Source: Eledone cirrhosa (lineage: Eukaryota). Taken from it: 64,000 bases of DNA. How positions within the stretch are numbered: position 1 is the stretch's first letter; each line of letters opens with the position of its first letter. Positions 3,463-64,000 of the stretch are shown one piece after another. The stretch covers positions 68,882,001 through 68,946,000 of the forward strand of contig OZ024743.1 of assembly GCA_964016885.1 (NCBI GenBank), written 5' to 3'. Below the pieces are notes generated by a model that did no database searches, was not told the origin of the DNA, and worked only from the letters and a program-made list of their open reading frames with translations. The translations under genes and the position numbers were made by a program.

Positions 3463-3549
3463 TGTACAGATTAAAGTTTAAGCAAAGAGTGGCTGCTTTC
3501 ACCCTCTTAGGGGAAATTCTCAAATTATTAATACTATATATAGAGATAC

Positions 3550-3631
<82 letters not shown>

Positions 3632-3788
3632 TGGAATAAATGCTCTGAAATAGCGATATATATGTGAATATAGACATAGAATATTCGAAAATATTCTGTA
3701 TGTTTATAATAAACATTTTGAAGACCTAATCGCTATAGAATAGAATACGTCACGTATTACAATTAGATTCTCGATAAAAGCAAGGGAA

Positions 3789-3831
3789 GTAATCTACGCG
3801 TTTCATTCTCGTTAGAAATCATCAGGACTAC
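3789..3831 (-). ncRNA. Minimal type I hammerhead ribozyme (repeats at 4099, 4409, 4719, 5029, 5339)
   Basis: Reverse complement GTAGTC-CTGATGA-tTTCTaacgAGAAt-GAAA-CGCG-TA-GATTAC. Helix I is GTAGTC/GATTAC and helix III is the palindrome ACGCGT. Confidence 0.85.
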
Positions 3832-5854
3832 ATATCCAGTGCTTTTATCGAGAATGACACAGCTAGAGACTTATAGAATACTTAGCTGTGTACAGGAACT
3901 GGTTTGAAAGAGCGGTTGCCGGTCCGGCAGAAATTAGAAATTGGAATAAATGCTCTGAAATAGCGATATATATGTGAATATAGACATAGAATATTCGAAA
4001 ATATTCTGTATGTTTATAATAAACATTTTGAAGACCTAATCGCTATAGAATAGAATACGTCACGTATTACAATTAGATTCTCGATAAAAGCAAGGGAAGT
4101 AATCTACGCGTTTCATTCTCGTTAGAAATCATCAGGACTACATATCCAGTGCTTTTATCGAGAATGACACAGCTAGAGACTTATAGAATACTTAGCTGTG
4201 TACAGGAACTGGTTTGAAAGAGCGGTTGCCGGTCCGGCAGAAATTAGAAATTGGAATAAATGCTCTGAAATAGCGATATATATGTGAATATAGACATAGA
4301 ATATTCGAAAATATTCTGTATGTTTATAATAAACATTTTGAAGACCTAATCGCTATAGAATAGAATACGTCACGTATTACAATTAGATTCTCGATAAAAG
4401 CAAGGGAAGTAATCTACGCGTTTCATTCTCGTTAGAAATCATCAGGACTACATATCCAGTGCTTTTATCGAGAATGACACAGCTAGAGACTTATAGAATA
4501 CTTAGCTGTGTACAGGAACTGGTTTGAAAGAGCGGTTGCCGGTCCGGCAGAAATTAGAAATTGGAATAAATGCTCTGAAATAGCGATATATATGTGAATA
4601 TAGACATAGAATATTCGAAAATATTCTGTATGTTTATAATAAACATTTTGAAGACCTAATCGCTATAGAATAGAATACGTCACGTATTACAATTAGATTC
4701 TCGATAAAAGCAAGGGAAGTAATCTACGCGTTTCATTCTCGTTAGAAATCATCAGGACTACATATCCAGTGCTTTTATCGAGAATGACACAGCTAGAGAC
4801 TTATAGAATACTTAGCTGTGTACAGGAACTGGTTTGAAAGAGCGGTTGCCGGTCCGGCAGAAATTAGAAATTGGAATAAATGCTCTGAAATAGCGATATA
4901 TATGTGAATATAGACATAGAATATTCGAAAATATTCTGTATGTTTATAATAAACATTTTGAAGACCTAATCGCTATAGAATAGAATACGTCACGTATTAC
5001 AATTAGATTCTCGATAAAAGCAAGGGAAGTAATCTACGCGTTTCATTCTCGTTAGAAATCATCAGGACTACATATCCAGTGCTTTTATCGAGAATGACAC
5101 AGCTAGAGACTTATAGAATACTTAGCTGTGTACAGGAACTGGTTTGAAAGAGCGGTTGCCGGTCCGGCAGAAATTAGAAATTGGAATAAATGCTCTGAAA
5201 TAGCGATATATATGTGAATATAGACATAGAATATTCGAAAATATACTGTATGTTTATAATAAACATTTTGAAGACCTAATCGCTATAGAATAGAATACGT
5301 CACGTATTACAATTAGATTCTCGATAAAAGCAAGGGAAGTAATCTACGCGTTTCATTCTCGTTAGAAATCATCAGGACTACATATCCAGTGCTTTTATCG
5401 AGAATGACACAGCTAGAGACTTATAGAATACTTAGCTGTGTACAGGAACTGGTTTGAAAGAGCGGTTGCCGGTCCGGCAGAAATTAGAAATTGGAATAAA
5501 TGCTCTGAAATAGCGATATATATGTGAATATAGACATAGAATATTCGAAAATATTCTGTATGTTTATAATAAACATTTTGAAGACCTAATCGCTATAGAA
5601 TAGAATACGTCACGTATTACAATTAGATTCTCGATAAAAGCAAGGGAAGTAATCTACGCGTTTCATTCTCAAACATACAGAATATTTTCGAATATTCTAT
5701 GTCTATATTCACATATATATTGCTATTTCAGAGCATTTATTCCAATTTCTAATTTCTGCCGGACCGGCAACCGCTCTTTCAAACCAGTTCCTGTACACAG
5801 CTAAGTATTCTATAAGTCTCTAGCTGTGTCATTCTCGATAAAAGCACTGGATAT

Positions 5855-5897
5855 GTAGTCCTGATGATTTCTAACGAGAATGAAACGCGTAGATTAC
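5855..5897 (+). ncRNA. Minimal type I hammerhead ribozyme (repeats at 6165, 6475, 6785)
   Basis: GTAGTC CTGATGA TTTCTAACGAGAAT GAAA CGCG TA GATTAC, enclosed by the 15-bp inverted repeat ATTCTCGATAAAAGC/GCTTTTATCGAGAAT. Confidence 0.85.
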
Positions 5898-6947
5898 TTC
5901 CCTTGCTTTTATCGAGAATCTAATTGTAATACGTGACGTATTCTATTCTATAGCGATTAGGTCTTCAAAATGTTTATTATAAACATACAGAATATTTTCG
6001 AATATTCTATGTCTATATTCACATATATATCGCTATTTCAGAGCATTTATTCCAATTTCTAATTTCTGCCGGACCGGCAACCGCTCTTTCAAACCAGTTC
6101 CTGTACACAGCTAAGTATTCTATAAGTCTCTAGCTGTGTCATTCTCGATAAAAGCACTGGATATGTAGTCCTGATGATTTCTAACGAGAATGAAACGCGT
6201 AGATTACTTCCCTTGCTTTTATCGAGAATCTAATTGTAATACGTGACGTATTCTATTCTATAGCGATTAGGTCTTCAAAATGTTTATTATAAACATACAG
6301 AATATTTTCGAATATTCTATGTCTATATTCACATATATATCGCTATTTCAGAGCATTTATTCCAATTTCTAATTTCTGCCGGACCGGCAACCGCTCTTTC
6401 AAACCAGTTCCTGTACACAGCTAAGTATTCTATAAGTCTCTAGCTGTGTCATTCTCGATAAAAGCACTGGATATGTAGTCCTGATGATTTCTAACGAGAA
6501 TGAAACGCGTAGATTACTTCCCTTGCTTTTATCGAGAATCTAATTGTAATACGTGACGTATTCTATTCTATAGCGATTAGGTCTTCAAAATGTTTATTAT
6601 AAACATACAGAATATTTTCGAATATTCTATGTCTATATTCACATATATATCGCTATTTCAGAGCATTTATTCCAATTTCTAATTTCTGCCGGACCGGCAA
6701 CCGCTCTTTCAAACCAGTTCCTGTACACAGCTAAGTATTCTATAAGTCTCTAGCTGTGTCATTCTCGATAAAAGCACTGGATATGTAGTCCTGATGATTT
6801 CTAACGAGAATGAAACGCGTAGATTACTTCCCTTGCTTTTATCGAGAATCTAATTGTAATACGTGACGTATTCTATTCTATAGCGATTAGGTCTTCAAAA
6901 TGTTTATTATAAACATACAGAATATTTTCGAATATTCTATGTCTATA

Positions 6948-7016
<69 letters not shown>

Positions 7017-19373: not shown

Positions 19374-19924
19374 ATTAGGATTGGTGCACTTAAATAGCGA
19401 TGTATACATGAATGTATGCATAGTATATTTGGCAATATACCGTATGTTTAATTAAAAACATTTAGAAGACCATACGCTATCGGTTTTAAAGTAGTGACTA
19501 TGTCACTTACTTATTTTCGGCGAAAGAAGGGAGAGAAGCCAACAGTCAGTTTCACGCTGGTTGGCGATCATTAGAGCCAAGTACCCATGCTTCCGCCGAA
19601 ATATAGAGAAGCTAGATTCTTATAGAATTCCAGTATTAATCAGGAGCTGATTATACAGAGCGATTGCCAGTCCAGCAAAAATTAGGTATTAGGATTGGTG
19701 CTCTGGAATAGCGATGTATACATTAAAGTGTATATAGTATTTTTGGCAATATACCGTATGTTTAAATAAAAACATTTAGAAGACGTTACGCAATCGGTTT
19801 TAAAGTAGTGACTATGTCACTTACTTCTTTCCGGCGAATGAAGTAAGTAACATAGTCACTGCTTTAAAACCGATAGTCTTCTAAATGTTTTTAATTAAAC
19901 ATACGTTATATTGCCAAATATTAT

Positions 19925-19930
<6 letters not shown>
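19374..19930. mobile_element. Diverged relative of the 310-bp HHR monomer (~314 bp): 1.5 tandem units plus an inverted tail
   Basis: ATTAGGATTGGTGC at 19374 and 19688, inverted from ~19835. Degenerate HHR on the minus strand at ~19537-19578 (CTAATGA..GAAAC). Confidence 0.75.
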
Positions 19931-19988
<58 letters not shown>

Positions 19989-29280: not shown

Positions 29281-29359
<79 letters not shown>

Positions 29360-29398
29360 TAATAAAAATAATGAAACAGTTCCTTATATTAAAAAATT

Positions 29399-29534
29399 CA
29401 TCATTTTACGATCGTTTCTAGGATATATATGTGTGTGTTGGTATGTATATCATATAGATATATGTACAATTTTTACAAACCATCAGAGGGAATATACATA
29501 CCTACACATATATATGCTGTCTTCAGAAATAATG
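29399..29534 (-). ncRNA. Hammerhead ribozyme in the Penelope 3' pseudo-LTR
   Basis: Reverse complement CATTATTT-CTGAAGA-CAGCATATATATGTGT...ACACATATATATCCTA-GAAA-CGATCG-TA-AAATGATG. 8-bp helix I, palindromic helix III. Confidence 0.8.
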
Positions 29535-30306
29535 ATATTTGTTTATTGAAAAAAACAACAAAGATTTAATATAATAGGTCTGTTTGGGAACAGGTTTTGA
29601 ATTGACCAATAGAAAGGTAGTAAGTGGTCAAGATGGTAGAATAGTAGTAATGGAACTTTAATTTAGGTGTAGAGGAAGGCAGATTTCAGTTTTGAATGGA
29701 AAGAGTATAATGAATGAAAAGATTATTTTGGGGATGAAAATAGGTCAAGTCGGTAAAAGGTACACGAAAATTTGAAGTTATAAAAGAATAATGCTAATGT
29801 AAATATCTAAGGAGAATAACATTTTACGATAAATGTGTTAGTGAAAAATATCAATCTTATTTAAAATATAAGGAATTTACATCTATAAAAAGAAAATAAA
29901 TTAATTAAAGTGATAGGTATATTTATATTGATAAATGTATATCAATTCATATAGATATGATAAATAAGAATTAGATGTAATTGAAGAATGCTGTTAAAAA
30001 CGAAGGGAAAATAAAAAAATAATAATTATTATTATTTGGGGGGGGGGGGGGGTAAATTTATTAGTGAGAAATAACAAATTTATATAGATTATAAGGAATA
30101 TAGATTCATAACCAGAAATTAAAATAGTTTATATGTATACTTATCGGTATAAATTTTAGGAAAAGATTGCTGTAAAAGGGAAATAAAATTATGCAGTTCA
30201 TTAGTAGTAGAATATTAATTATAGGTTAACTAATTTAAAAAAAGTGTTATTATAATAATTTGTAAAGTGTATATTAATTAGGTTTATAATATTTAAAAGT
30301 TCTTCT

Positions 30307-31640
30307 CTATTTATGATTACATGATATAATTAATTCCTGTCGCTTATTTAATAGGATATCCTTAGATTTCATTATTTCAAAAGGTTCCTGGGAACACAAT
30401 CTACATTCATATCTATTATTCTGATAAGGGGTGGCCCTTTTGAGCACACTCCAGGTCAGGTTATAATCTATATTCCTTTTTCTATAATTATTAATTATTT
30501 CAGCTAAGGATGTTGTATTAGCTAATGTGGCATTTTTAAAACTGTGTTTGTGGGTATTAAATCTTACTTTAAATTGGTTAGAAGTAGCTCCTATATATGA
30601 ATAAGTTGAGTCCTTAGTGTTAATTTTACATTTATATACTATGTTATTAATAAGGCAATTTCCTTTTAATGGGCAATTTGCTTTGTTTCTACAGTTACAA
30701 CCTTTGGTGAATGCTGTATCAGAGGAGATAGTCAAATTAGGTGTGGAATTTTCACGACTTGTTGTATGTGAATGAGATGGTGGTTTGCTGTGGTTTATTT
30801 TAGTATTATGGTTAGTTTGATGTATTGGTGGAATATTCATGGGTTTTTTTTACATTTGTATGCATTATAGGCACTTATATTATGTTGTATATTGTTGGTT
30901 GTTGAGTAGGAGAATTTAACCGTTGATCTATTTAAAATTTGATGGTATTTATGGTTTGGCGGGAAGTTTTTCTCTGGGATAGTAAAAAATTTTTTAGGTA
31001 TATTATCTTTAATTTGTAGATTAAATGGAGCATTATACCAAGTAACTCGTCTATTACGGTTTCGATGTTGTTTATTATTTTTATAGGATGTATCCTGATG
31101 TTTATTAAGAGAATTAGTATTAGTGATTTTATTACACATATTTTTAGTTAGATCCATTGATTTAGGTGTTTTAGCCTGTTTATTAGAAATTTTGTTATTA
31201 ACATATATTGGAGTATTAGGAGGAATGGTTTTTTGAAAGTTACTATATTGTATATTAGAAGAATTAGAGAAATTAAGTTTTATGTTGGTATTTTTGGGTT
31301 TAGTGTGAGTGGCATTTAGGTGTGTATATTTCATTTGGTGTTTGTTGGTAATATTGGGTTGTATGTTTGTAGTGTTATTGGTACAAGGTATATATACTAA
31401 TTTGTTTTTGTGGCCGCTTCTAGCTAAAGCTTCGTTATAACAGGTCGCATTTTTATCAAATACATCCTGGTTAGACCAAAGGTTAGACATTTTGAGTGAG
31501 ATATTATATGCTAGGTTTTTAAGGATAGATTTAGGGTGATTAGATTGTGAGTGTATGTAATGTAAGTTTTGGTTAGGTTTATGGTAAGGTTGGTAGATAC
31601 CCGTAGATAAGTCTAATGTTATATCAAGGAAATTAACTAC
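30307..31640 (-). pseudogene. Penelope RT C-terminus plus GIY-YIG endonuclease (frameshift near 30838)
   Basis: CNCR..CPLKGNCL..NIVY..YSYIGAT..FKVRFNTH..CRLC..E..LLNKRQELI.SC.H motifs in ORFs 30837-31490 and 30307-30840. Confidence 0.88.
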
Positions 31641-31842
31641 TTTACTTGTGTTTTAAAATGTAACATCGAGACTATAATAGTCTTTGTGGAAAGTTCTAAT
31701 CAGTTTTTTATTTTTTTATATATATATATATTGTTATACATATTGTTTTAATAATATTGCCAGAAATGATAACAGAACACACTCACTGTTTGGTTGGTTT
31801 TCACTTCTGTATCTTTTAGATCTCCATAGTTAATTTATTTGG

Positions 31843-32959: not shown

Positions 32960-33043
32960 CGTTATTCCGGGTTGAATCGGAGGTAACCACAGTAAGTAAG
33001 GTACTCAATACATAGCAGAGTATAGCAGTTTTAATATAGATGA

Positions 33044-33092
33044 GATTCTACAGGACTAGAACTGTTTCATTCATTTGAAATCATCAGGAATC
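33044..33092 (-). ncRNA. Type I hammerhead ribozyme in a ~130-bp (TA)n-flanked island
   Basis: Reverse complement GATTC-CTGATGA-tTTCAaaTGAAt-GAAA-CAGttctagtcCTG-TA-GAATC. Confidence 0.8.
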
Positions 33093-33199
33093 ATATATAT
33101 ATTTTTATATATATATATATATATATACATATATATATTTTTATATATATATATATATACATATATATATTTTTATATATATATATATATACATATATA

Positions 33200-55789: not shown

Positions 55790-56172
55790 TTAGGATTGGT
55801 GCTCTGAAATAGCGATGTATACATGAATGTATGTATAGTATATTTTATTTGGTTATACATCGTATGGTTAATTAAACACATTTAGAAGACCATATGCTAT
55901 CAGTTTTAAAGTAGTGACTATGTCACTTCTTTTCGGTGAAAGAAGGGAGAGAAGCAGACAGTCTGTTTCACGCTGGTTGGCTTTCATCATAGCCACGTAC
56001 TCCTCTGCCTTCGCCGAAAATTATAGAAGCTGGGTTCTTGTAGAATTCCAGTAATAATATGAGTTGATTATACAGAGCGATTGCCGGTCCAGCAACAATT
56101 AGGTATTAGGATTGGTACTCTGAAATAGCTATAGTATATTTGGCAATATACCGTATGTTTAATTAAAAACAT
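55790..56172. mobile_element. Relative of the 310-bp HHR monomer (1.2 units)
   Basis: Same body as 19374. Minus-strand HHR GGCT-ATGATGA-..-GAAA-CAGACTG-TC at ~55953-55995. Confidence 0.75.
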
Positions 56173-56188
56173 TATATATATATATATA

Positions 56189-58996: not shown

Positions 58997-59580
58997 CATT
59001 ATATATATAAGTATGTATACGTACATACATATATGCATACAGACGTACAGTAGTATGTATATATATATATGCATAAATGCACACATATATATATATATGT
59101 GTACGTATAGATTTACCGAACATTTATTATAATGCTCGGTCTGTTTGTAAACAAACATGCCCAAGTAAGCCGTACAGTGTTTAGCAACCATCGATGCCCT
59201 TTTGTTCAACACTGACAAAGGAACGATGTACTAGTTTCAAGCTTATTAACTATCGTCAGCATCGTATACCTTCCTGCCAGATGATTGAACGTCTGAAAGT
59301 ATATACTTTCCTTATGCATATTAACCGCTGAGCAGCCTAATTGGCATATCGAGTGAGTTAATCGGCCGGGCGCACCGAAAACGATTAATGGAAAAAATGA
59401 AACGAAATTTCATTTCTTACTCTTAGTACGGCTGTTACTTAAATATAAGTATGTATACGCACATAAATATATGTATACAGACGTACAGTAGTATGTATAT
59501 ATATATACATAGATGCACACATATATATGTACGTATGGGTTTACTGAAAATTTATTGTAATGCTCGGTTTGTTTGTAAAC
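58997..59580 (-). mobile_element. ~437-bp partial tandem, a distant inverted relative of the 468-bp HHR monomer
   Basis: 59005-59150 is repeated at 59443-59580. Shared AAACGAAATT and GCAG.CTAAT..GCATA blocks. Confidence 0.7.
59223..59265 (-). ncRNA. Intact-looking minimal hammerhead ribozyme
   Basis: Reverse complement ACGATG-CTGACGA-tAGTTaataAGCTt-GAAA-CTAG-TA-CATCGT. Confidence 0.83.
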
Positions 59581-59982: not shown

Positions 59983-60019
<37 letters not shown>

Positions 60020-60025
<6 letters not shown>

Positions 60026-61012
60026 TTATTGCTCTGAAATAGCTATATATATATGAATGTATATATAGTGTATTTTGCAATACACTGTATGCTTAATAAA
60101 AAGAATTTTGAAGACATTATGCTATTGTTTTAGAGTAGTGACAGACTCACTTACTTTAATTTCAGCAAACAGGGGGAGATAAAAATGACAAGACCTTGTT
60201 TCTGCATTTATTGATGCTTATCAAAGCCAACTACTCCTGCCGTTTGCTGAGAACCTGGATGTTTTGGTTCTTATAGAAGTCTAGTAAATAATCAGGAACT
60301 GATTATACAGAGCGGTTGCCGGTCAAGCAAAAATTAAAAATTAGAATTGTTGCTCTGAAATAGCTATGTATATATGAATGTATATATAGTGTATTTTGCA
60401 ATACATTGTATGCTTAATAAAAAGCATTTTGAAGACCTTATGCTTTTGTTTTAGAGTAGTGACAGACTCACTTACTTTAATTTCACCAAGCAATCAGTTC
60501 TTGATTATTTACTAGAATTCTATAAGAACTAAAACATCCAGGTTCTCAGCAAACGGCAGGAGTAGTTGGCTTTGATAAGCATCAATAAATGCAGAATCAG
60601 CTTTATCTCCCCGTGTTTGCTGAAATTAAAGTAAGGTCTTCAAAATGCTTTTTATTAAGCATACATTGTATTGCAAAATACACTATATATACATTCATAT
60701 ATATATAGCTATTTCAGAGCAACAATTCTAATTTTTAATTTCTGCTTGACCGGCAACCGCTCTGTATAATCAGTTACTGATTATTTATTAGAATTCTATA
60801 TGAACCAAAACATCAAGGTTCTCAGCAAACAGGAGTAGTAGCTGGCTTTGATAAGCATCAATGAATGCAGAAACAAGGCCTTGTCAGCTTTATCTCCCCC
60901 TGTTTGCTGAAATTAAAGTAAGTGAGTCTGTCACTACTTTAAAACAATAGCATAAGGTCTTCAAAATGCTTTTTATTAAGCATACAGTGTATGCAAAATA
61001 GACTATATATAC
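60020..61012. mobile_element. Third relative of the 310-bp HHR monomer: tandem plus inverted arms
   Basis: ATTAGAATT.TTGCTCTGAAATAGC at 60020 and 60340, inverted from ~60492. HHR-like GGCT-TTGATAA-GCATcaatgaATGCa-GAAA-CAAGGCCTTG-TC-AGCT at 60844-60889. Confidence 0.8.
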
Positions 61013-61097
<85 letters not shown>

Positions 61098-62764: not shown

Positions 62765-64000
62765 CTCTAAAAACCGGTTTGTCTGTGTGTTTACATACAG
62801 AATAGCTGGGCCGCTCACTGTAAAGCAACCAGTGAAAGACTTGGTTACACCTACATATGTATACGTGTGTGTATTCATATACACACTAGTATTTCAGTAT
62901 GCATATGTAGATGTACATTTTTAACTTAATTGTTTAAGCGTCAGTCATACAAAAGTGAGTTACAAACGAAACGAAATTTAATTTCGTTTCGTTATTTGTT
63001 TTTATCGTCTCCGCTGAACCGGTGCGTACTCACACTCTATGCAAATTAGTCTGCCCACTACTAATTTTCATAGAAAAAGCATATAACGATATGTGCTTTT
63101 ACAATTCTCCAGAAAGGCCGGTAGATAGGTAAATATTGCTGATGAGTTGTAACAACAACGAAACTAGTTCAATATTCCTTGACTGGCTTTCTGGAGAATA
63201 GGGGGAAGGTGTTCCCCCGAAAAACCAGTATGACTCTAAAAACCGGTTTGTCTGTGTGTTTACATACAGAATAGCTGGGCCGCTCACTGTAAAGCGACCA
63301 GTGAAAGACTTGGTACACCTACATATGTATACGTGTGTGTATTCATATACACACTAGTATTTCAGTATGCATATGTAGATGTACATTTTTAACTTAATTG
63401 TTTAAGCGTCAGTCATACAAAAGTGAGTTACAAACGAAACGAAATTTAATTTCGTTTCGTTATTTGTTTTTATCGTCTCCGCTGAACCGGTGCGTACTCA
63501 CACTCTATGCAAATTAGTCTGCCCACTACTAATTTTCATAGAAAAAGCATATAACGATATGTGCTTTTACAATTCTCCAGAAAGGCCGGTAGATAGGTAA
63601 ATATTGCTGATGAGTTGTAACAACAACGAAACTAGTTCAATAGTCCTTGTCTGGCTTTCTGGAGAATAGGGGGAAGGCGTTCCCCCGAAAAACCAGTATG
63701 ACTCTAAAAACCGGTTTGTCTGAGTGTTTACATACAGAATAGCTGGGCCGCTCACAGTAAAGCGACCAGTGAAAGACTTGGTACACCTACATATGTATAC
63801 GTGTGTGTATTCATATACACACTAGTATTTCAGTATGCATATGTAGATGTACATTTTTAACTTAATTGTTTAAGCGTCAGTCATACAAAAGTGAGTTACA
63901 AACGAAACGAAATTTAATTTCGTTTCGTTATTTGTTTTTATCGTATCCGCTGAACCGGTGCGTACTCACACTCTATGCAAATTAGTCTGCCCACTACTAA
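62765..64000 (+). repeat. 468-bp near-identical tandem array (at least 2.6 units, runs off window); retrozyme-like
   Basis: CTCTAAAAACCGGTTTGTCTG at 62765, ~63234 and ~63702. Confidence 0.95.
63132..63176 (+). ncRNA. Canonical minimal type I hammerhead ribozyme (second copy 63600-63644)
   Basis: AATATTG-CTGATGA-GTTGtaacaaCAAC-GAAA-CTAG-TT-CAATATT. 7-bp helix I, 4-bp helix II, palindromic ACTAGT helix III. Confidence 0.9.

What the first reader, a model, noticed from the sequence alone, without database searches (positions are those of the whole stretch)
3628..6950. 310-bp 'satellite' is a ten-hammerhead retrozyme-like array that flips orientation midway
Seen: near-identical 310-bp units (I noticed variants only at 5245 and 5721). 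Each full unit carries a minimal type I hammerhead nested in a 15-bp stem: 6 on the minus strand, 4 on the plus strand. The array is non-coding and sits in (TA)n. Established: minimal HHRs with a palindromic helix III occur in Penelope pseudo-LTRs and metazoan tandem retrozymes, cleave as dimers and can yield circular RNAs. Inference: this is a recent rolling-circle reverse transcript of a ~310-nt circRNA, copied onto both strands of a TA target by a Penelope RT in trans.
Basis: partly seen in the sequence, partly recalled or inferred. Interest (0 to 1): 0.9.

Follow-up and report, generated by a model that had tools for sequence, protein, structure and literature searches.

The report
Ribozyme repeats inserted by Penelope machinery
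This is one of roughly 1,500 scattered, very young arrays of a 310-base repeat that carries a predicted self-cutting RNA; their head-to-head layout and two fixed end points match the footprint of Penelope-type jumping genes, and the arrays were likely copied round and round from one small RNA circle, which would make a long-proposed but unshown mechanism testable.

Summary
Observation confirmed: 6.6 units on the minus strand, 4.1 on the plus strand, ten type I hammerhead motifs, (TA)n on both sides. The flip is no accident of this copy. The genome holds 4,226 exact copies of the hammerhead 31-mer. Of 70 arrays read, 59 are head-to-head; in all 23 not chosen for it, one arm ends at site A (unit 125-139) and the other at site B (157-172). 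This is the inverted copy plus 30-40-base 'tail' known from Penelope-like elements (PLEs); an autonomous PLE here shows the same layout. Inner ends are scattered and joined by microhomology. Arrays carry their own haplotype in every unit of both arms (25 haplotypes in 59 arrays), which points to one monomer template, likely a circle. Older subfamilies keep the hammerhead by compensatory changes. Not shown: cleavage, any RNA, the partner PLE. Rfam gave no hammerhead match; some long arms also grew at DNA level. Verdict: an animal retrozyme, new variant, with genomic footprints for a mechanism so far only proposed. The scan noted a similar, ribozyme-free PLE-marked array in another genome (e1-7881736).

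The parts
3535..3627 (.). (TA)n target, left flank
3628..5670 (-). left arm, 6.59 units; hammerhead-sense strand is minus; RNA-3' end at 3628 = site B (unit position 167, counting from the predicted cut)
3628..3664 (-). 37-base 'tail': unit positions 131-167, present at the end of the left arm and absent from the end of the right arm
   Evidence: same A/B offset in 59 of 59 two-armed arrays
3789..5381 (-). six hammerhead motifs, helix I starting at 3831, 4141, 4451, 4761, 5071, 5381; predicted cuts after 3795, 4105, 4415, 4725, 5035, 5345
5670..5671 (.). head-to-head junction, blunt; unit position 295 (left arm) meets 90 (right arm)
5671..6951 (+). right arm, 4.13 units; RNA-3' end at 6951 = site A (unit position 130, running into TA)
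5855..6827 (+). four hammerhead motifs at 5855-5897, 6165-6207, 6475-6517, 6785-6827; predicted cuts after 5891, 6201, 6511, 6821
5831..5919 (+). one example of the 16-bp outer stem enclosing the hammerhead (approximate bounds)
6952..6981 (.). (TA)n target, right flank, followed by (GA)n
19375..19946 (.). older relative (about 68-75% identity): minus arm ends at site B, plus arm at site A, TA on both sides
55790..56175 (-). older relative (about 64-75%), single arm ending at site B
60019..61025 (.). older relative (about 75-77%, unit about 321 bp): minus arm ends at B, plus arm at A; hammerhead core with U3-A8

Best explanation
The array is an insertion of a non-coding, hammerhead-bearing repeat family (an animal retrozyme) that was likely written into a (TA)n tract by a Penelope-like reverse transcriptase/endonuclease acting in trans, likely by rolling round one 310-nt RNA circle. 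Shown: the family, its head-to-head layout, two fixed outer ends with one per arm, scattered inner ends with microhomology, array-wide haplotypes, structural conservation of the hammerhead. Inferred steps: (1) an array is transcribed; adjacent hammerheads pair their palindromic helix III and cut; (2) a monomer is ligated to a circle, where a lone hammerhead would be largely inactive; (3) a PLE protein, probably a dimer, binds the conserved block at unit 110-212 and nicks both strands of the TA target; (4) one nick primes cDNA at site A, the other at site B, on the same RNA; (5) each cDNA runs several times round the circle and stops at a random point; (6) the two cDNA 3' ends anneal over 1-5 bases and are filled in, which gives the inversion and the tail at one end. 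Split odds: PLE-type insertion 0.9, selected hammerhead 0.85, circular monomer template about 0.65.
For: 4,226 exact hammerhead 31-mers, 0 in the reversed control; 16,740 copies of the site B block. 59 of 70 arrays two-armed, all minus-then-plus with one A and one B end; 23 of 23 among arrays not picked for a pair of ends, p=1.2e-7 for free choice. No arm ends at the predicted cut followed by TA: 0 matches against 762 B ends and 654 A ends on the plus strand alone. Microhomology in 32 of 40 clean junctions against 47% expected, p=2e-5. 25 haplotypes in 59 arrays; 12 of 14 variants private to one array are fixed on both arms, e.g. 22 of 22, 18 of 18, 17 of 17 units. 83 single-unit variants against 12 partly shared ones; 0 single-unit variants at the cut site in 606 crossings. 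Young arrays hold a median of 8 units; two older subfamilies 1-3 per arm, so arrays seem to be born long. 21 of 32 pairs of the hammerhead and outer stem change on both sides across subfamilies, including C3-G8 to U3-A8; 87.9% cells paired against 38-50% when slid. Cofolding two motifs gives the intermolecular helix III. An autonomous PLE in this genome (995-aa frame, L218) shows head-to-head arms with a short and a long end in TA (L224, L225, L227). Contigs of run X5 show 12 listed head-to-head joints at other positions and TA loose ends at sites A and B. PMC8557442 and PMC3846280 describe the inverted copy plus 30-40-bp tail; PMC11167929 shows a PLE protein extending both strands from two internal RNA sites that bound the tail.
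Against: No RNA evidence and no cleavage assay. No Rfam hammerhead match, and the monomer's lowest-energy fold does not form the hammerhead. No autonomous PLE sharing the unit's sequence was found in any PLE locus held. Long arms show repeated partial variants that a single circle cannot give: L205/L206 (45 units; a linked pair of changes in 9 units), L047, L049 (including one change at unit position 1 in 2 of 22 units), L050. L200 and L211 carry a one-unit variant at nearly the same distance from the 3' end on both arms, as a linear template would give; L065 is mixed at position 276 (9 of 13). In PMC11167929 uncut linear RNA was the main substrate in vitro; in 10.64898/2026.07.22.740005 only 1 of 9 predicted retrozyme dimers cleaved. 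Young arrays were sampled from the first 115 Mb of one contig, plus the window.
Confidence: 0.6

Rival explanations
1. Same PLE insertion, but the template is a linear, uncut multimer transcript of a source array, or the insert is short at birth and each arm then grows by DNA-level tandem duplication. The circle, if it exists, is a by-product.
For: Partial variants repeated within long arms, including a 7-unit spacing in L049; one-unit variants at matching offsets on both arms in L200 and L211; uncut RNA is the main in-vitro substrate in PMC11167929; Li et al. 2026 favour local amplification after insertion.
Against: Private haplotypes fixed over up to 22 units on both arms, and nested haplotypes, need repeated one-unit bottlenecks. 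Single-unit variants outnumber shared ones 83 to 12. Older subfamilies have shorter, not longer, arrays. Selection on a dimer-type hammerhead is better explained if monomers are the mobile form (inference).
Confidence: 0.25
2. The template is a cut linear monomer, and the RT makes multimers by jumping from its 5' end to a 3' end.
For: Also gives a one-unit bottleneck. Insertions at unit position 3 exist as array-wide variants in 4 arrays.
Against: No single-unit scars at the cut site in 606 crossings; inner ends are not piled at the cut site (2 of 114 within positions 308-3).
Confidence: 0.06
3. A LINE or other non-PLE RT mobilises the repeat by 3'-end priming with occasional twin priming.
For: Twin priming with microhomology is known from L1 (recalled); LINE fragments lie in the window.
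Against: No poly-A or simple tail, no ends at the RNA cut site, inversion in 59 of 70 arrays, and a strict two-site tail that the papers read describe as specific to PLEs.
Confidence: 0.05
4. Ordinary satellite DNA spread by recombination, or an assembly artefact from fold-back reads; the hammerhead is chance.
For: Rfam blank. The window's own junction 5670/5671 was not among the 12 joints listed.
Against: Dispersed arrays with fixed A/B ends and different junctions; junctions are not fold-backs (6 of 58 within 10 bases of symmetry, p=0.2); joints seen in contigs of another run; covariation.
Confidence: 0.03

Closest known systems
Animal non-LTR retrozymes (Cervera and de la Pena 2020, PMC7229834; Li et al. 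2026, 10.64898/2026.07.22.740005)
   Same: Tandem units of 150-450 bp, low GC, non-coding, one type I hammerhead per unit; U-U at the base of helix II as in axolotl HHR_Amex2; PLEs in the same genome. Those papers propose circRNA templates and PLE mobilisation.
   Different: In the text I read neither reports head-to-head two-armed arrays, fixed A/B ends, the tail, or array-wide haplotypes ('inverted', 'orientation', 'target site' have 0 occurrences in PMC7229834). Their RNA circles were shown; here they are not.
EN+ Penelope-like elements (PMC8557442, PMC3846280, PMC11167929, PMC4209133)
   Same: Inverted 5'-truncated copy, tail at one end only, (TA)n targets, hammerhead with palindromic helix III, ends lying 125-172 bases past the hammerhead cut; U3-A8 core variant as in Cercyon.
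   Different: No RT/GIY-YIG frame; many complete short units per arm rather than a partial tandem; no sequence link to any PLE family sampled here; local PLE family 2 has a 63-base tail.
L1 twin-priming inversions (recalled, no call)
   Same: Two cDNAs primed from the two target strands and joined by microhomology.
   Different: Here both priming sites are fixed and internal, inversion is the rule, and each arm is longer than one unit.

Membership tests
animal non-LTR retrozyme | tandem repeats of 150-450 bp, low GC, no coding frame | tested here: met
   310 bp, 34.5% GC, longest frame 59 codons
animal non-LTR retrozyme | type I hammerhead in every unit | tested here: met
   10 of 10 full motifs; covariation; note Rfam models do not match
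animal non-LTR retrozyme | dispersed multi-locus family, no LTR/PBS/PPT layout | tested here: met
   arms abut TA directly. PBS and PPT were not searched separately.
animal non-LTR retrozyme | self-cleavage in vitro | not testable with these tools
   only folding predictions
animal non-LTR retrozyme | expressed as monomeric circular RNA | not testable with these tools
   no RNA run available; indirect haplotype evidence only
PLE-type insertion | inverted 5'-truncated copy joined head-to-head | tested here: met
   59 of 70 arrays
PLE-type insertion | 30-40-bp tail on one end only | tested here: met
   A (125-139) versus B (157-172) in 59 of 59; commonest pair 130/165
PLE-type insertion | AT-rich or (TA)n target | tested here: met
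   51 of 57 two-armed arrays have at least 4 alternating TA bases on both sides
PLE-type insertion | target-site duplication | tested here: inconclusive
   not discernible in TA tracts
autonomous PLE | RT plus GIY-YIG reading frame | tested here: not met
   no frame of 200 codons in L041-L060; unit non-coding
derivative of a named PLE family | unit homologous to the pLTR of an autonomous element | tested here: inconclusive
   none found among families sampled; the genome holds more PLE families than were read
Rfam hammerhead families | score at gathering threshold | tested here: not met

The most novel reading that the evidence does not exclude
A viroid-sized RNA circle is spreading through this animal genome now. 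A PLE dimer primes twice on the same circle and rolls, so each array is a DNA recording of one RNA molecule; changes made to that molecule, possibly including A-to-I editing (7 of 24 array-wide substitutions are A>G against 2 of 68 single-unit ones; position 276 in helix I switches midway along an arm in L065), are written into the genome. The family would give the first genome-scale proof of rolling-circle retrotransposition of a retrozyme and explain the PLE inversion and tail as obligatory two-site priming.
Probability: 0.35. Interest if true: 0.85.

Novelty: new variant of a known kind. Interest (0 to 1): 0.65.

Why it matters
Two open questions meet here. Retrozyme papers propose that a PLE copies circular RNA into tandem DNA, on co-occurrence and similarity alone; PLE papers list the origin of the inverted copy and tail as unresolved. 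This family shows the PLE footprint on a retrozyme in hundreds of near-identical, recent insertions, with a strict rule (one arm per priming site) and per-array haplotypes that work as molecular barcodes. A 310-nt RNA, a TA target and intact PLE frames in the same genome make a compact in-vitro test.

Tried and rejected
DNA search of the genome with the unit returned nothing, not even itself; the pattern search worked. Rfam: no hammerhead. Sequencing runs: no RNA holder listed. Runs X1 and X2 each gave one 340-letter contig (310+30), which a circle or a tandem array would both give; X23 gave 0 laid reads; run kinds and organisms are coded, so I draw nothing from these. Partner search: PLE family at window 30.3-31.7 kb, a second Neptune-like family with intact 840-970-codon frames, PLE family 2, 3' regions of 20 other PLE fragments read by eye, and 60 loci of older subfamilies: no shared sequence. 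Retrozyme copies beside PLEs in L143, L161, L267 and L284 are separated by TA, and in L062 by an assembly gap: treated as independent insertions. L220 joins a PLE-2 arm directly to an older-subfamily arm; one case, also explicable by a deletion. Pfam found no family in five PLE frames. Fold-back self-priming (PMC3846280) is not favoured. Absence of array-wide variants in the 12 core positions is not significant (p=0.34). Strand bias of single-unit variants T>C versus A>G fell from p=0.02 to p=0.07 with wider end margins; divergence did not correlate with array length (p=0.29). No polymerase III box found by simple patterns. The first junction tally was distorted by haplotype variants and was redone.

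Full report
1. Observation. The window holds two arms of a 310-bp repeat, 3628-5670 reading on the minus strand and 5671-6951 on the plus strand, joined bluntly and flanked by (TA)n. Only positions 5245 and 5721 differ from the unit. Each full unit carries GTAGTC-CTGATGA-helix II-GAAA-CGCG-TA-GATTAC, a type I hammerhead layout, six times on minus and four on plus, inside a 16-bp stem. Such a motif arose in 2 of 5000 shuffles; the unit folds with z=-5.2. Rfam does not recognise it and the monomer's lowest-energy fold is not a hammerhead. Two motifs cofold with ACGCGU as an intermolecular helix III, the dimer form described in PMC4209133 (passages). Below, unit position 1 is the base after the predicted cut.

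2. A large young family. The window lies in a 3.0-Gb animal assembly; one PLE homolog at 48% identity is named from an octopus, so a cephalopod host is a weak inference. The hammerhead 31-mer occurs 4,226 times, a looser block near site B 16,740 times. End-plus-TA patterns give 762 B ends and 654 A ends on the plus strand (minus-strand counts are inflated by repeated listing), so about 1,500 arrays by doubling. Single-unit variants run at 3.4e-4 per base.

3. Architecture. I read 70 arrays: the window and 69 from the first 115 Mb of contig C1 (L205 and L206 are one array; of L055, which shows the array twice around a gap, the second copy was counted; L041, with four pieces, was scored by its outer arms). 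59 have two arms, all minus then plus; 11 have one arm (9 ending at A, 2 at B, one of these beside an assembly gap). In all 59 one arm ends at site A (125-139) and the other at site B (157-172). 35 were picked because they had both ends and are no evidence; among the 9 picked by hammerhead hits and the 14 picked by one end, 23 of 23 are mixed (p=1.2e-7 under free choice). No arm ends at the cut site. Inner ends are spread over the unit. Of 58 junctions, 31 show 1-5 shared bases, 1 shows 16, 8 are blunt, 18 have extra bases; microhomology exceeds chance, and junctions are not fold-backs. Contigs of run X5 show other head-to-head joints and TA ends at both sites; the window's own junction was not among those listed.

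4. This is the PLE footprint. PMC8557442 (passages) and PMC3846280 (passages) describe an inverted 5'-truncated copy and a 30-40-bp tail at one end, with (TA)n bias. PMC11167929 (parts 1-2 of 4) shows a PLE protein nicking and extending both strands from two internal RNA sites that bound the tail, with a predicted dimer. As a control in this genome, PLE family 2 (995-codon frame with RT and GIY-YIG motifs read by eye, own hammerhead) has head-to-head arms with a short and a long end in TA in L224, L225 and L227, tail 63 bases. Two older subfamilies of the repeat keep the same two ends, and the region around them is the best-conserved part, as expected of a protein-binding site (inference).

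5. The hammerhead is under selection. In 11 aligned sequences from four subfamilies (four rows are close variants), 21 of 32 pairs change on both sides; 87.9% of cells pair, against 74% in shuffles and 38-50% when partners are slid. C3-G8 becomes U3-A8 in one subfamily, a swap known from Cercyon PLEs; helix III stays palindromic or nearly so with other letters. Caveat: I drew the structure from the young unit and the sequences are related. In the young family, array-wide changes in the motif fall at position 7, loop II, the U-U pair (restored in 10 arrays) and helix I wobbles.

6. One template per array. 59 arrays with enough cover show 25 haplotypes built from 27 array-wide variants; 12 of the 14 private ones are fixed on both arms, the other two being covered on one arm only. 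Each array therefore passed through one unit, and both arms came from it. A circle gives this directly. End-to-end jumping on a cut monomer should leave scars and pile inner ends at the cut; neither is seen. Against a pure circle: 12 partly shared variants, plus those in the 45-unit arm of L205/L206, show later DNA-level duplication in some long arms; L200 and L211 share a one-unit variant at matching offsets on both arms. Older subfamilies have 1-3 units per arm against a median of 8 units per young array, which fits birth as long arrays followed by shrinkage better than slow growth.

7. Mechanism. Transcription, dimer cutting, circularisation, two-site priming by a PLE on both strands of a nicked TA tract, rolling synthesis, and annealing of the two cDNA ends. 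The DNA outcome is shown; every RNA and protein step is inferred. That PLE RTs lack RNase H, and the L1 twin-priming model, are recalled, not from calls. The partner was not found among the PLE families sampled; L220 is one direct PLE-2/older-subfamily junction.

8. Relation to print. PMC7229834 (passages and Discussion) shows animal retrozyme circles and proposes PLE RTs making tandem cDNA; PMC4209133 proposes circles as templates for more-than-unit copying; 10.64898/2026.07.22.740005 (parts 1-3 of 5; supplements not seen) links retrozymes to pLTRs by distribution and phylogeny. The idea is thus in print. Seven searches found no description of this family, of two-armed retrozyme arrays with a tail, or of array-wide haplotypes; the library lacks most subscription papers, supplements were not read, and repeat databases could not be searched. 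The scan's own notes hold nothing for this genome and one similar ribozyme-free case elsewhere, which I did not check.

9. Verdict. Real, and a retrozyme by every feature testable here; new in that its insertion scars tie it to PLE enzymes and to a one-unit template. New variant of a known kind; interest 0.65.

Noticed in passing
window 62765-64000, continuing in L111 to about 3220: A second tandem hammerhead family, 468-bp unit, plus strand only, palindromic helix III CTAG; not similar to the 310-bp unit.
   Followed up: partly
window 29350-31652 (-): 5'-truncated Neptune-like PLE (RT thumb, GIY-YIG) whose 3' region has a hammerhead-like motif with a helix II of about 100 bases, read by eye; 61,911 first-look candidates genome-wide.
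   Followed up: partly
window 32960-33100 (-); L062, L065, L075, L107, L212, L221, L238: Another abundant short hammerhead element in TA tracts with the same U-U base of helix II, also seen head-to-head with short and long ends (L065).
   Followed up: partly
window 59230-59270 (-); L116, L134, L151: A further hammerhead family with CTAG helix III.
   Followed up: no
unit position 276; L035, L052, L065, L066, L067, L208, L211: A>G at a UAG in helix I recurs on several haplotype backgrounds and is mixed within L065 and L067; A>G is over-represented among array-wide changes (7 of 24 versus 2 of 68, p=0.001). RNA editing or selection for G-U pairs could both explain it; polarity is against the window's unit.
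   Followed up: partly
L220:1521-2995: Direct head-to-head junction between a PLE family 2 arm and an arm of the 321-bp older subfamily.
   Followed up: partly
L205-L206 (G000:C1:97461500-97476500): 15-kb array with a 45-unit arm and irregularly repeated linked variants.
   Followed up: partly
L148-L167, L218-L227: Many PLE copies with long stop-free frames (about 700-995 codons), in at least two families; fragments of several more families lie in the flanks.
   Followed up: partly
The 310-bp unit is held at 66-100% of its words by 20 runs under 18 coded organism labels in 17 studies; whether this means related species, carry-over or transfer cannot be told.
   Followed up: no
L161:5920-6426, L143/L168: A 312-bp subfamily at about 95% identity with short arrays and the same ends.
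   Followed up: partly
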